Below are positions 3,230-19,708 of a stretch of DNA of 64,000 bases, one piece after another. How positions within the stretch are numbered: position 1 is the stretch's first letter; every line of letters begins with the position of its first letter. The position numbers and the translations under genes were made by a program. Below the pieces are notes generated by a model. That model did no database searches and was not told where the DNA came from. It saw only the letters and a list, made by a program, of their open reading frames with translations. The stretch comes from the human T2T-CHM13v2.0 reference genome, Homo sapiens, in assembly GCF_009914755.1 (NCBI RefSeq), contig NC_060946.1; one strand, 5' to 3'.

Positions 3230-3458
3230 GGATTTGGACTTCATTCTGGACAGCATATGACAAGGACGAGGACCCCTATTCTAGCCAGTTAAAGCTGGAC
3301 AGAATTTTTAAAAGCAATGAAGCCAGTTCCTTGGATATATCCACGGGCTTTGCTTTGAGAAGGAACTGAGTAGGCAGTGAGAAGAGTCGAGTGAAGCCTG
3401 GCCCGTGAGTGCCTCAACAACTGAGATGAACGTCGACTCGCTTGCAGGCAAGTTGTCA
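3230..3458 (+). other. SLC25A18: Probable SLC25A18 first (leader) exon; 5' end not definable from sequence
   Basis: Unique sequence ending in two strong donors, CAG|GCAAGT (3447/3448) and TCA|GTAAGTAT (3458/3459); position agrees with my recollection of the gene model; start coordinate is a guess. Confidence 0.5.
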
Positions 3459-4029
3459 GTAAGTATTTATTAAATACCCACCGTGAGCCTTGTACTTTGC
3501 CTAGTTACTAAGAAACCAAAAGGGGGAAAAATAGCCTCATCTGCTCAGAGTTCATAATAAACCTGTATTGTGAATACAGAATACAGAAAAACTGGACTCT
3601 AGTGAGGTGCTAGAAAGAGTGTACTGCTTAGCTGAGATAGCAGATGAAGGAAAAATATTTTTGGTTCCTCCCTGCCATGCAATCGTACCGGGAGGGTGGA
3701 GTGTTGGTGTTCTCAGCCCATTTAATTTGGATGGAGCTGCGGGCTCATCAGTTTGGGGACTGGCTTCATCGCTTGTTCTGTCCAGCAGTCGCGTCTTCTC
3801 GGACTCCTTGTTCCAGCTTGAATTCCTCTTTTGCCCTGGCTCCACTCTAAGACGAAGACTGTGTAATTCAGAAAATGCAGCGCAAGTAATTATGTCCAGT
3901 GTGATGCTAAACATTTCCCAAAGGCAGCGTAGATCTGCAGAAACTGCAGCTTGGGAGAAGTGATGGTGTTCCTCTCCCCACCACCTCAGCCTGCCCTGAT
4001 CATTCTCACTCACATGATCTATTGTGATG

Positions 4030-4190
4030 TTCTCACAATGTAGCCTGGCCATCATCTGGGAACTTGCTGGAAATGCAGATTTTGGCATCCCGCCTAAGAC
4101 CTTAAACTGAAGAAGGGCCTAGCTCTCTCTTGTAACTAGCAACAGATGCAACCTGCATGGTTCTGATGCAAACTGACCTGGAAGAATGGC
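4030..4190. mobile_element. MER5-like hAT-Charlie relic
   Basis: catctgggaacttgctggaaatgcagatt...ggttctgatgca motifs. Confidence 0.5.
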
Positions 4191-4323
4191 CCTGGCATTT
4201 ACATTTTGGTCCTTAGATGCAGGTAATCTGAGCTGAACATCTTCAAACCTGAGGCATAGCATAGAAAAAAGAATACAAACAGTTTATATAAAGTAAAAAA
4301 AATTTTTAGAAAGGACTTAAGTT

Positions 4324-5738
4324 GGCTGGGGCGCGGTGGCTCACACCTGTAATCCCAGCACTTTGGGAGGCCAAGGCGGGCGGATCACGAGGTCAAGAGA
4401 TGGAGACCATCCTGGCTAACGTGAAACCCCATCTATACTAAAAATACAAAAAATTAGCCAGGCGTGGTAGCAGGTGTGGTAGTCCCAGCTACTCGGGAGG
4501 CTGAGGCAGGAAACTCACTTGAACCTGGGAGATGGACGTTGTAGTGAGCCAAGATTGAGCCAGTGCACTCCAGCCTGGGGGACAGAGCAAGACTCTGTCT
4601 CCAAAAAAAAAAAATCAGGCCCAGGCAACATAATGAGGCCCCACCTCTACAAAAAAATAATTGTTTTAATTAGCCAGGTTGATGGTGTGCACCTGTGATC
4701 CCAGCTACTCAGGAGGGTGAGGTGGGTGGATCGCTTGAGCCCAGGAGCCCTCCCTCGGGATGCTCTTACTTCTGCCTGCAGCCTCATTTGTCACTCTGTG
4801 CAGACTCATTCTGTTTTTGTTTTGTTTTGTTTTGTTTTGTTTTTGAGACAGTCTTGCTCTGTCACCCAGGCTGGAGTACAGTGGCACAATCTCGGTTCAC
4901 TGTAAACTCCGCCCCCCCGGGTTCACGCCATTCTCCTGCCTCAGCCTCCCGAGTAGCTGGGACTACAGGTGCCTGCCACTATACCCAGCTAATTTTTTGT
5001 ATTTTTTAGTAGAGACGGGGTTTTGCCATGTTGGCCAGGATGGTCTCGATCTCCTGACCTCGTGATCCACCCACCTCGGGCTCCCAAAGTGCTGGGATTA
5101 CAGGCGTGAGCCACCACGCCCTGCCAAATTTTCTATTTTTTAATAGAGATAGGGTCTTGCCAAGTTGAAGTGCAGTGGTATGATCATAGCTCACTGCAGC
5201 CTCCAACCCCAGGGCTCAAATGATCCTCCTTCCTCGACCTCCCAAGTAGCTAGAACTACAGACACACACCGCAGCGCCTGGCTAATTTTTTGTTTGGGGT
5301 TTTTTTGAGTAATTTTTTAAAAAAATTTTTGGACAGGTGTGTTGGCTCACGCCTGTAATACCAGCACTTTGGGAGGCCGAGGCAGGCAGATCACCTGAGG
5401 TGGGGAGTTCAAGACCAGCCTGACAAACATGGAGAAACCCCGTCTCTACTAAAAACACAAAATTAGCCGGGCATGATGGGGCATGCCTGTAATCCCAGCT
5501 TCTCCGGAGGCTGAGGCAGGAGAATCACTTGAACCCAGGAGGTAGAGGTTTCAGTGAGCCGAGATCGTGCCATTGCACTCCAGCCTGGGCAACAAGAGTG
5601 AAGCTCCGTCTCAAAAAATAAAGAGATGGGGTCTTGGATGTTTCCCAGGCTGGTCTCAAACTCCCAGGCTCTAGTGATCCTCCCACCTCAGCCTCCCAAA
5701 GCACAAGGATTACAGGCGTGAGCCACCGCACCTGGCCT
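4324..5738. mobile_element. Alu cluster (+4324-4615, partial +4620-4745, -4813-5125, AluJ- 5140-5738 interrupted by AluS+ 5331-5620)
   Basis: Alu consensus motifs, A/T tails, nesting. Confidence 0.9.
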
Positions 5739-18800: not shown

Positions 18801-19130
18801 TAAGTGGGTTTTTTGTTTGTTTGTTTGTTTGTTTGTTTGTTTGTTTGTTTTTGAGACAGTCTTGATCTGTCGCCCAGGCTGGAGTGCAGTGGTGTGATCT
18901 CGGCTCCACCACAACCTCTGTCTCCTGGATTCAAGCAATCTCCTACCTCAGCCCCCCAGGTAGCTGGGATTACTAGCCCACCACCACACCCAGCTAATTT
19001 TTGCATTTTTAGTAGAGATGGAGTTTCACCACGTTGCCCAGGCTGGTCTCGAACTCCTGAGCTCAGGCAATCCGCCCGCCTCGGCCTCCCAAAGTGTTAG
19101 GATTACAGGCATGAGCCACCACGCCCGGCC
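15820..19130. mobile_element. Alu-rich interval (+15820-16125; nested -16645-17205; -17327-18017; +18397-18655; -18808-19130 with (TTTG)n tail)
   Basis: Alu motifs. Confidence 0.85.
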
Positions 19131-19488
19131 ATCTTAAGTATTTTATTGTAGTCCTTGGACACCAAGAGAGGGATTCCTAGTTCATAGCAACTCCTCTTAA
19201 AATCCTTTCCATCCCTTCTGCTTCCTCCAGTGCCACTCCCATGCCTCTGTCCAAAATGCCCCAGACATCCTTTCCTCCAGCCTCAGCAGGCTGCTGTATC
19301 CTTCTCTCTCATTCCCCTTCCTTCTTATCTGATCCCCAGAGTCCAAAAGTTCGAGGATTCTGATTTGAATCCCAAAGTCCAAAAGGTTTAGGAAGGGAAA
19401 AAAGTGGAGCAAGCGGGCCGCATGAATCCACTAGTGACGTGCGTCCTCGCCCATCTGTGAGGTGAGTGTTTCTCTGACTACTTTGCAG

Positions 19489-19688
19489 GGGAGGAAGCCG
19501 CAGCCCAAGGAGGTCGTCACTTGCCGGGAAGGTGGCTCGGGCCAGGCTGCACTCAAAACCCGTGCTCTGTCCACACTGCTACGGGGCCAGAGCCAAGGAA
19601 GCTTCCACTTCTTCCCCCAGACAGCCCCAACAGCGGCTACCCCAAGGAGCCAGCAGCCTTGTGTCCTGGGATCCCCAGCCCCTGCAGA
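19489..19688 (+). other. SLC25A18: SLC25A18 exon 3, 5' UTR portion (200 nt)
   Basis: ctgac branch-like motif + tactttgcag| acceptor at 19487-19488; no ATG before 19689. Confidence 0.75.
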
Positions 19689-19708
19689 ATGACCCACCAG
19701 GATCTGAG
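19689..19708 (+). CDS. SLC25A18: SLC25A18 coding exon 1 (MTHQDL)
   Basis: ATG in agaATGa context; AG|gtgagc donor. Confidence 0.9.

What the first reader, a model, noticed from the sequence alone, without database searches (positions are those of the whole stretch)
3426..19692. Candidate splice-controlled frame switch in the SLC25A18 leader: N-extended carrier versus overlapping uORF
Seen in sequence: an ATG at 3426 (G at -3; in-frame stop upstream at 3378) precedes two donors 11 nt apart, CAG|GCAAGT (3447) and TCA|GTAAGT (3458). With the GC donor, 22+63+200 = 285 nt with no stop runs in frame into the main ATG, adding 95 aa (MNVDSLAAQQRSELYPGFQKRQRFLPKAGEEAAAQGGRHLPGRW...[13 protein letters not shown]; 410 aa total). 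With the GT donor, the same ATG reads a 99-aa uORF (MNVDSLAGKLS-LSSDLNYILGSRKGRGSYRKQ-GRKPQPK...SPAPAE*) that stops at 19690-19692. Exon 2 is 63 nt, so skipping it keeps either frame. Its tandem acceptors (AG at 9669, 9674, 9677) give further routes to the in-frame form: GT donor plus the 2nd or 3rd AG gives 291 or 288 nt. I find no other ATG in exon 2 or the exon 3 leader. Established: GC-AG donors with an otherwise perfect consensus are functional and often alternative, and overlapping uORFs repress the main ORF. Inference: splice choice could toggle between a repressed/coupled mRNA and an N-extended GC2 with altered targeting or regulation. Caveat: exons 1-2 are inferred from splice signals and memory, and GC-rich leaders can be stop-free by chance.
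Basis: partly seen in the sequence, partly recalled or inferred. Interest (0 to 1): 0.8.

Follow-up and report, generated by a model that had tools for sequence, protein, structure and literature searches.

The report
SLC25A18 leader: overlapping uORF, in-frame variant
The untranslated leader of the human mitochondrial glutamate carrier gene SLC25A18 contains an upstream start codon that opens a 99-codon reading frame overlapping the real start, and a nearby alternative splice site would instead fuse it in frame to the carrier; the sequence facts are correct, but the added protein segment looks like translated leader, not a conserved domain.

Summary
With the annotated GT donor (exon end 3458), ATG 3426 opens a 99-codon ORF whose TGA (19690-19692) overlaps the main ATG (19689). 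With the GC donor (exon end 3447) the same ATG is in frame and gives 410 aa.

Both products are already in public protein collections:
- an unnamed 99-aa entry identical to the uORF product.

The evidence does not favour a functional extension:
- it occurs in only two protein clusters, ape and green monkey;
- the monkey model reads exon 2 in the other frame;
- its exon-3 part diverges about five times faster than the carrier;
- it shows no codon-position GC pattern, has no homologue, and the paralogue's start matches the annotated ATG.

I could not test junction use or ribosome initiation. My best reading is a uORF-laden leader with a minor, probably non-adaptive, in-frame splice variant: a new member of a known kind, of modest interest.

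The parts
3243..3458 (+). SLC25A18 exon 1 (non-coding in NM_031481.3); single copy in the genome
   Evidence: Hub annotation; (only the self match in G000).
3257..3292 (+). uORF1: 11 codons plus stop, weak context (C at -3), 14 nt from the annotated 5' end
3317..3358 (+). uORF2: 13 codons plus stop, G at -3; its stop lies 67 nt before ATG 3426
3426..3428 (+). uATG3, the shared start of the 99-codon overlapping uORF (GT route) and of the 410-aa in-frame form (GC route)
3445..3453 (+). Candidate GC donor CAG|GCAAGT (exon end 3447); matches 8 of 9 positions of the GT consensus; the only copy of this 9-mer in the window
   Evidence: 1 match, 0.97 expected; U1 duplex -7.4 kcal/mol.
3456..3464 (+). 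Annotated GT donor TCA|GTAAGT (exon end 3458)
   Evidence: Hub annotation; (U1 duplex -7.5 kcal/mol, 6 of 9 consensus positions).
9668..9677 (+). Three closely spaced acceptor AGs (ends at 9669, 9674, 9677) at the start of exon 2
9670..9732 (+). Exon 2, 63 nt; open in the main frame and the uORF frame, one stop (9683) in the third frame
   Evidence: single copy.
19462..19488 (+). Last 27 nt of intron 2, preceded by an AG at 19460-19461. It translates to a peptide that matches the 7 residues inserted in the green monkey model in 6 of 7 positions.
19489..19688 (+). Exon-3 leader: 200 nt, 65% GC, no stop triplet in any frame, no ATG, folds less well than its shuffles
   Evidence: 0.8% of 5000 shuffles; z = +1.89; single copy.
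19581..19583 (+). In-frame ACG with G at -3 and G at +4. This is a possible non-AUG route to a 36-residue extension on the canonical mRNA, whose main frame is open from 3425.
   Evidence: sequence only, no evidence of use.
19667..19671 (+). TGGGA pentamer 22 nt before the main ATG
   Evidence: 4.4% of 5000 shuffles have one 8-60 nt upstream.
19689..19692 (+). ATGA: the main start codon overlapped by the uORF stop

Best explanation
The selected SLC25A18 mRNA has a 479-nt leader with three upstream ATGs.

The first two open short ORFs of 11 and 13 codons inside exon 1. The third, at 3426, opens a 99-codon ORF that runs through exons 2 and 3 out of frame and stops on a TGA overlapping the main ATG.

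Inferred, not shown: ribosomes that start at 3426 are carried past the carrier's start. GC2 would then be made by ribosomes that leak past the uATGs, or that reinitiate after the short uORFs, so the leader dampens GC2 output. Termination 16 nt before the exon 3-4 junction, with eight junctions still downstream, could also expose the mRNA to nonsense-mediated decay.

A consensus GC donor 11 nt upstream of the annotated GT donor removes 11 nt and puts ATG 3426 in frame. This gives a 410-aa carrier with a 95-residue, proline- and glycine-rich extension.

I take this to be a minor splice variant whose extension is translated 5' UTR of recent (catarrhine) origin, not a selected targeting or regulatory domain. 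It is open because the GC-rich exon-3 leader happens to lack stops in every frame.
For: Architecture.

Both products are listed independently: the gorilla isoform X1 (410 aa, 95 of 95 extension residues identical to the human GC-route product) and an unnamed 99-aa entry identical to the uORF product.

Evidence that the extension is leader-like:
- Only 2 clusters carry it among the candidates scored from 5.8 billion proteins.
- It has 0 hits at E <= 0.001 in 1.84 billion representatives.
- It has no Pfam domain; Mito_carr starts at residue 100.
- GC by codon position is flat.
- Proline is 16 of 95 residues and glycine 10 of 95.
- The exon-3 part is 59 of 67 identical between the ape and green monkey models, against 307 of 315 in the carrier (Fisher p = 0.0024). 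That is roughly the neutral human-Old World monkey rate as I recall it (about 6-7% per site).
- The monkey model reads exon 2 in the uORF frame (18 of 21). It regains the main frame through 7 residues that match the end of human intron 2. This implies frame-shifting differences between lineages.

The annotated ATG is the ancestral start. The paralogue SLC25A22 starts in the homologous exon with the same 20-nt coding part, and a TAA lies directly before its ATG.

The human annotation supplied with the finding lists 2 transcripts for the gene. The one it shows uses the GT donor and has the 315-codon CDS.
Against: - The extension is identical in human and gorilla (0 changes in 95 residues, where about 3 would be expected at a recalled 1.6% neutral divergence; Poisson P = 0.037). 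The carrier differs at 4 residues. This hints at some constraint on the leader, although it may act on RNA rather than protein.
- ATG 3426 is kept in the green monkey model.
- Both frames are open in only 0.74% of shuffles.
- Two primate gene models appear to end exon 1 at the upstream site rather than the GT site (for the monkey this is my inference from the protein alone). Use of that site may therefore not be rare in those species.
- The GC site pairs with U1 as well as the GT site does.
- No expression, junction or ribosome data could be consulted, so 'minor' is inferred only from the transcript shown in the human annotation.
Confidence: 0.55

Rival explanations
1. Choice between the GC and GT donors (and the tandem acceptors) is a regulated switch. 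One outcome is a uORF-repressed mRNA; the other is a working N-extended GC2 with altered targeting or regulation.
For: - The frames fit exactly.
- A gorilla model encodes this very protein.
- U1 pairing is equal at the two sites.
- The extension is identical in human and gorilla.
- The ATG is kept in green monkey.
- Both frames being open is uncommon in shuffles (0.74%).
- From recall: some SLC25 carriers do carry N-terminal presequences or domains.
Against: - Divergence in the extension is neutral-like compared with the carrier.
- Exon 2 is read in a different frame in the monkey model.
- There is no codon periodicity, no homologue and no domain.
- The first 20 residues hold two acidic residues and have no net charge, which is unlike a typical presequence.
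- The paralogue's start equals the annotated ATG.
- The one human transcript shown in the supplied annotation does not use this junction.
- None of the papers found by four full-text searches that paired SLC25A18 with uORF or translation terms deals with its leader, and a fifth search on splice isoforms returned nothing.
Confidence: 0.1
2. ATG 3426 is essentially silent. Most ribosomes are captured by uORF2 or scan past 3426, or most transcripts start downstream of it. Neither the 99-codon ORF nor the extension would then affect GC2 output, and the arrangement is a neutral accident of a young, stop-poor leader.
For: - Two uATGs precede it, one in an adequate context.
- Only 67 nt separate the uORF2 stop from ATG 3426. 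From recall, such a short gap disfavours reinitiation there.
- The context has A, not G, at +4.
- SLC25A18 does not occur in the 5 supplementary files of a study of the 7,264 catalogued human Ribo-seq ORFs.
- A single open frame is common in shuffles (about 8-12%).
Against: - As I recall it, that catalogue rests mostly on cell types that hardly express this astrocyte and liver gene, so its silence is weak evidence.
- G at -3 is an adequate context.
- The ATG is kept in the green monkey model.
- No other ATG occurs in the 293 nt that follow, although 24% of shuffles show the same.
Confidence: 0.25
3. The leader couples translation by one of two routes. The first is ATF4-like delayed reinitiation: short uORFs followed by an inhibitory uORF that overlaps the CDS, so that low ternary complex favours GC2. 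The second is termination-reinitiation at the ATGA overlap, helped by the TGGGA 22 nt upstream.
For: - The order of the elements fits: short uORFs, then an out-of-frame overlapping uORF.
- ATGA overlap.
- TGGGA at 19667.
- The exon-3 leader is less structured than 197 of 200 shuffles.
Against: - From recall, a 99-codon uORF is long for efficient reinitiation.
- TGGGA is found in the same zone in 4.4% of shuffles, and in the sequence it sits within a short inverted repeat.
- SLC25A18 protein falls rather than rises in the brain of eIF2B-mutant mice (passage in PMC11126554). That is a mouse result, it follows astrocyte pathology, and I do not know the mouse leader.
Confidence: 0.07

Closest known systems
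Upstream overlapping ORFs (uoORFs) in vertebrate 5' leaders
   Same: An AUG upstream of the main start, out of frame, ending beyond or on the main AUG. From recall of the uORF literature, this class is the more repressive kind of uORF.
   Different: Translation of this one has not been shown. It is unusually long (99 codons) and spans three exons.
Thrombopoietin (THPO) leader in hereditary thrombocythaemia
   Same: A change in splicing of the leader removes an inhibitory uORF and raises protein output (passage read in the review PMC3045505, citing Wiestner et al. 1998). It is the best-known case of splicing deciding whether a uORF represses the main ORF.
   Different: In THPO the switch is a disease mutation with measured effects. 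Here it is a hypothetical choice between natural tandem donors, with no measurement.
U2-type GC-AG introns
   Same: GC at +1/+2 with an otherwise consensus donor, paired with an AG acceptor. GC-AG sites make up about 0.9% of human splice sites (introduction of PMC4176328).
   Different: Use of this GC site in human is not documented in anything I could reach. The gorilla model shows only that exon 1 ends at that position, not that the gorilla base is C.
N-terminally extended proteoforms from 5' leaders (for example PTEN-L; recalled)
   Same: An in-frame, stop-free leader upstream of the annotated start. The main frame is open for 99 codons in the canonical mRNA too, with an ACG in a good context.
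   Different: As I recall, known functional extensions are conserved and detected as protein. This one evolves at a neutral-like rate and is confined to catarrhine models.
ATF4-type delayed-reinitiation leaders (recalled)
   Same: Short 5' uORF(s) followed by a uORF that overlaps the CDS out of frame.
   Different: No stress response of GC2 translation is known. The mouse protein falls in a chronic integrated-stress-response model.

Membership tests
Upstream overlapping ORF (uoORF) | AUG in the mature leader upstream of the main AUG | tested here: met
   ATG 3426 lies in annotated exon 1, 296 nt before the main ATG in the spliced mRNA.
Upstream overlapping ORF (uoORF) | Out of frame with the CDS, with its stop at or beyond the main AUG | tested here: met
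   The stop TGA at 19690-19692 overlaps ATG 19689.
Upstream overlapping ORF (uoORF) | Ribosome initiation and elongation on it | not testable with these tools
   No Ribo-seq data were available.
Upstream overlapping ORF (uoORF) | Represses the main ORF | not tested
   Needs a reporter with ATG 3426 mutated.
GC-AG alternative donor | GC at +1/+2 with strong consensus at the other donor positions | tested here: met
   CAG|GCAAGT matches 8 of 9 consensus positions; U1 duplex -7.4 kcal/mol, against -5.9 to -14.0 for the 10 annotated donors.
GC-AG alternative donor | Junction observed in transcripts | tested here: inconclusive
   This is indirect only. The gorilla NCBI model ends exon 1 at this position. 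The one human transcript shown in the supplied annotation does not use it. The supplement of PMC4176328 has no entry, but that paper counts GC-AG as canonical and one file was not searched.
Functional N-terminal extension | In-frame start with no stop before the annotated start | tested here: met
   285 nt are open on the GC route, and 291 or 288 nt on the GT route plus the 2nd or 3rd AG.
Functional N-terminal extension | Purifying selection on the added residues | tested here: not met
   8 of 67 residues differ against 8 of 315 in the carrier. Exon 2 is read in another frame in green monkey. There is no codon-position GC pattern. Against this, human and gorilla are identical in 95 of 95.
Functional N-terminal extension | Protein detected | not testable with these tools
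   No proteomics data were available.
ATF4-type delayed reinitiation | Short uORF followed by an inhibitory uORF overlapping the CDS | tested here: met
   uORFs of 11 and 13 codons, then the 99-codon overlapping ORF; the spacing is 67 nt.
ATF4-type delayed reinitiation | Translation rises when eIF2-alpha is phosphorylated | not tested
   The only information is an indirect mouse proteome: the protein is lower in eIF2B-mutant brain.
Termination-reinitiation with an upstream 18S-complementary motif | Stop and start overlap, with a UGGGA-type motif shortly upstream | tested here: inconclusive
   ATGA is present and TGGGA lies 22 nt upstream, but 4.4% of shuffles have one in that zone. The flanking stem elements were not examined.
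Mitochondrial carrier family (SLC25) | Three Mito_carr repeats | tested here: met
   PF00153 matches in 3 stretches, E = 1.2e-57, first stretch at residues 100-190 of the 410-aa model.

The most novel reading that the evidence does not exclude
Tandem GC and GT donors 11 nt apart act as a true binary switch in catarrhine primates. One choice yields an mRNA whose 99-codon overlapping uORF holds GC2 translation down. The other converts the same start codon into the head of a carrier with a 95-residue extension born de novo from 5' UTR. The identity of the extension between human and gorilla, and the stop-free state of the exon-3 leader in all frames, would then be traces of selection to keep both readings open.
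Probability: 0.07. Interest if true: 0.6.

Novelty: new member of a known kind. Interest (0 to 1): 0.3.

Why it matters
GC2 is a glutamate carrier enriched in astrocytes (review PMC7385250, passages).

If the leader really throttles its translation, variants that create, destroy or re-frame ATG 3426 or the two donors could change GC2 dosage without touching the coding sequence. mRNA levels would then be a poor proxy for the protein.

If the in-frame form is made, it would be a clear case of a carrier gaining a new N-terminus from its own leader within primates.

As it stands, the finding is an ordinary uORF-bearing leader with an unproven variant. Its main practical value is to flag that the gorilla 'isoform X1' model probably over-extends the CDS.

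Tried and rejected
- **Transposon origin of the leader exons.** Exon 1, exon 2 with flanks and exon 3 with flanks each found only themselves in the window's genome. That search skips very common words.
- **CpG-island promoter at exons 1-3.** None: CpG observed/expected is 0.18-0.36.
- **Stable RNA structure in the exon-3 leader.** The opposite was found, z = +1.89.
- **Homology of the extension to any protein.** 0 hits; no Pfam match for the extension or the uORF product.
- **Structure prediction of the 410-aa model.** The tool was not accepting jobs, so disorder of the extension is inferred from composition only.
- **Earlier findings of this scan.** Closed.
- **Full-text literature searches.** Pairing SLC25A18 with uORF, upstream open reading, ribosome profiling, or integrated stress response plus translation returned 2, 2, 3 and 9 papers. 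SLC25A18 with splice, isoform and long-read returned 0. I saw these as listings with abstract starts and read SLC25A18 passages in three of them. None of what I saw deals with the leader. The one ribosome-profiling hit I read (PMC13450726) only lists the protein in an RNA pull-down.
- **Supplements.**
  - PMC10032668: no occurrence in 5 files.
  - PMC4176328: none in 2 files, and 1 file was unsearched.
  - PMC6283423: only 60 characters are held.
  - Two subscription papers are not held.
  - Those unseen supplements (human brain Ribo-seq, large ncORF catalogues) could hold direct evidence for or against translation from 3426.
- **Cluster membership.** The 22 members of the cluster represented by the gorilla model could not be listed. 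I do not know which species, or whether any human entry, carry the extension.
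Full report
**1. What is in the sequence**

- ATG 3426-3428 sits in annotated exon 1 of SLC25A18, in the context ACTGAGATGA. The nearest in-frame upstream stop is at 3378.
- Two donor-like sites follow. CAG|GCAAGT has its exon end at 3447. TCA|GTAAGT has its exon end at 3458, which is the annotated one.
- Exon 2 (9670-9732) is preceded by three AGs ending at 9669, 9674 and 9677.
- Exon 3 starts at 19489 and holds the main ATG at 19689.

I rebuilt the routes from coordinates.
- GC donor plus 9670 gives 285 nt without a stop, in frame, and 410 aa.
- GT donor plus 9670 gives a 99-aa ORF whose TGA (19690-19692) overlaps the main ATG as ATGA.
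- GT donor plus 9675 or 9678 gives 412 or 411 aa.
- Skipping exon 2 keeps each frame (389 and 78 aa).

**2.

- The spliced leader is 479 nt and holds three uATGs, not one. ATG 3257 opens 11 codons, has C at -3 and lies 14 nt from the annotated 5' end. ATG 3317 opens 13 codons, has G at -3, and its stop ends at 3358, 67 nt before ATG 3426. Scanning ribosomes meet these first.
- After 3427 the whole leader has a single stop triplet in any frame, at 9683. The 200-nt exon-3 leader has none at all.
- The main frame is therefore open for 99 codons in the canonical mRNA too, from 3425. It holds an ACG at 19581 with G at -3 and G at +4. Alternative splicing is thus not the only conceivable route to an extended protein.

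**3. Is it more than chance?**

All figures come from dinucleotide-preserving shuffles.
- The GC route is open in 8.6% and the GT route in 8.3% of 5000 shuffles.
- Over exon 2 plus the exon-3 leader, the main frame is open in 10.1%, the uORF frame in 11.9%, and both in 0.74% of 5000.
- The exon-3 leader is open in all three frames in 0.8% of 5000.
- Of 62 tiles of 200 nt with 60-70% GC in this window, 0 were open in all frames and 6 were open in two or more.

The double openness is therefore uncommon, but it comes from a general lack of stops in all frames, which coding in one or two frames would not explain. The region was also chosen because it was open. The absence of further ATGs in the 293 nt after 3426 is unremarkable, since 24% of shuffles show the same.

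**4. Independent traces in databases**

A search with the main-frame translation of the exon-3 leader (72 aa, longer proteins) found two proteins.
- One is a 410-aa nr entry named 'mitochondrial glutamate carrier 2 isoform X1 [Gorilla gorilla gorilla]'. It represents a cluster of 22 members.
- The other is a 416-aa entry of the same name from Chlorocebus sabaeus.

A second search restricted to residues 1-95 of the gorilla model found the same two and nothing else.

The gorilla model's first 95 residues are identical to the human GC-route product; the four differences all lie in the carrier. The protein cannot tell whether the gorilla donor is GC or GT.

A third search, with the uORF-frame translation of the exon-3 leader, found one 99-aa entry without a name.

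Both ORFs have thus been listed before as sequences. None of the papers found by four full-text searches that paired SLC25A18 with uORF or translation terms deals with the leader, and a fifth search on splice isoforms returned nothing.

**5. Does the extension look like protein?**

- GC content by codon position is 0.63/0.59/0.60 in the extension and 0.60/0.57/0.64 in the uORF frame. In the carrier CDS it is 0.58/0.45/0.69.
- The extension has 16 prolines and 10 glycines in 95 residues.
- Its first 20 residues hold two acidic residues and no net charge.
- It has no Pfam domain; Mito_carr begins at residue 100.
- Its 66-residue exon-3 part has 0 hits at E <= 0.001 among 1.84 billion representatives.
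- Between the ape and green monkey models, the exon-3 part of the extension is identical in 59 of 67 residues and the carrier in 307 of 315 (Fisher p = 0.0024). Eight replacements in about 145 non-synonymous sites is close to the neutral divergence I recall for human against Old World monkeys.
- The monkey model reads exon 2 in the uORF frame (18 of 21 identical to the human uORF-frame translation). It returns to the main frame through seven residues that match the translation of the last 27 nt of human intron 2. From the residue counts I infer a shorter exon-1 part and a 22-nt addition before exon 3 in the monkey. These would be frame-shifting differences that coding sequence under selection would not tolerate. 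This rests on the proteins alone.
- In the other direction, human and gorilla show no change in 95 residues, where I would expect about three (P = 0.037), and the ATG is kept in the monkey.

**6. The ancestral start**

The homologous exon of the paralogue SLC25A22 was found in the window's genome. Its start exon carries an ATG followed by the same 20-nt coding part and a donor, and a TAA lies directly before the ATG. The annotated GC2 ATG is therefore the inherited start, and the open leader is a feature of this gene in catarrhines.

**7. Splice-site plausibility**

- The 9-mer CAGGCAAGT occurs once in the 64 kb on both strands, with 0.97 expected.
- Pairing with the U1 5' end (a motif typed from recall) gives -7.4 kcal/mol for the GC site and -7.5 for the GT site. 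The ten annotated donors of the gene range from -5.9 to -14.0.
- GC-AG sites are about 0.9% of human splice sites (introduction of PMC4176328).
- The site is credible. However, from general knowledge, a GT donor with equal U1 pairing that lies nearer the acceptor is expected to win, and the human transcript shown in the supplied annotation uses it.

**8. Mechanism**

Shown: the ORF layout.

Inferred:
- Ribosomes that start at 3426 on the main mRNA pass the GC2 start out of frame and terminate on it. GC2 would then depend on leaky scanning, or on reinitiation after uORF1 or uORF2.
- The short 67-nt gap after uORF2 would favour bypass of 3426.
- Termination 16 nt before the exon 3-4 junction could trigger decay.
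- The GC-donor variant would turn this into an in-frame start.

I rate this reading at 0.55: a dampening leader with a minor, non-adaptive in-frame variant.

For the coupled-translation reading, the TGGGA 22 nt upstream is weak evidence (4.4% of shuffles). SLC25A18 protein also falls in eIF2B-mutant mouse brain (passage in PMC11126554).

The closest documented analogue is the thrombopoietin splice mutation that removes an inhibitory uORF (passage in PMC3045505).

**9. Limits**

- No RNA-seq, CAGE, Ribo-seq, proteomics or primate genome could be consulted.
- Several supplements that might list this uORF could not be read.
- The makeup of the 22-member cluster is unknown.

Noticed in passing
window 19489-19688: The exon-3 leader has no TAA, TAG or TGA in any of the three frames (0.8% of 5000 dinucleotide shuffles). 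It also folds less stably than 197 of 200 shuffles (z = +1.89). Coding in one or two frames would not explain the third open frame, so this is unexplained.
   Followed up: partly
window 22378-22380, 27020-27022, 27793-27795, 29381-29383: The human carrier differs from the gorilla model at 4 of 315 residues (91, 184, 234, 260). At three of these the green monkey agrees with gorilla, and at the fourth it differs from both. The changes therefore appear to be on the human side of the human-gorilla split. I could not tell whether they are fixed, shared with chimpanzee, or variants of this assembly.
   Followed up: partly
window 3371-3858 and 9724-9897, minus strand: The predicted antisense lncRNA LOC105372850 (hub annotation) has exons that lie over both tandem donors of exon 1 and over the donor of exon 2. 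An antisense transcript covering 5' splice sites could in principle affect donor choice.
   Followed up: no
window 19460-19488: An AG at 19460-19461 precedes 27 nt that are open in the uORF frame. Their translation matches the 7 residues inserted in the green monkey model, so this may be an alternative acceptor for exon 3.
   Followed up: partly
L005 (G000:C11:844717-847830, minus strand), reverse-complement position 1392: The paralogue SLC25A22 has the same start-exon design (ATG plus a 20-nt coding part and a donor), but a TAA lies immediately before its ATG, so its leader cannot extend the protein.
   Followed up: yes
window 3257, 3317, 3426, 19689: All four ATGs of the spliced leader, the main start included, are followed by A (ATGA). 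None has the G at +4 of the optimal context.
   Followed up: no
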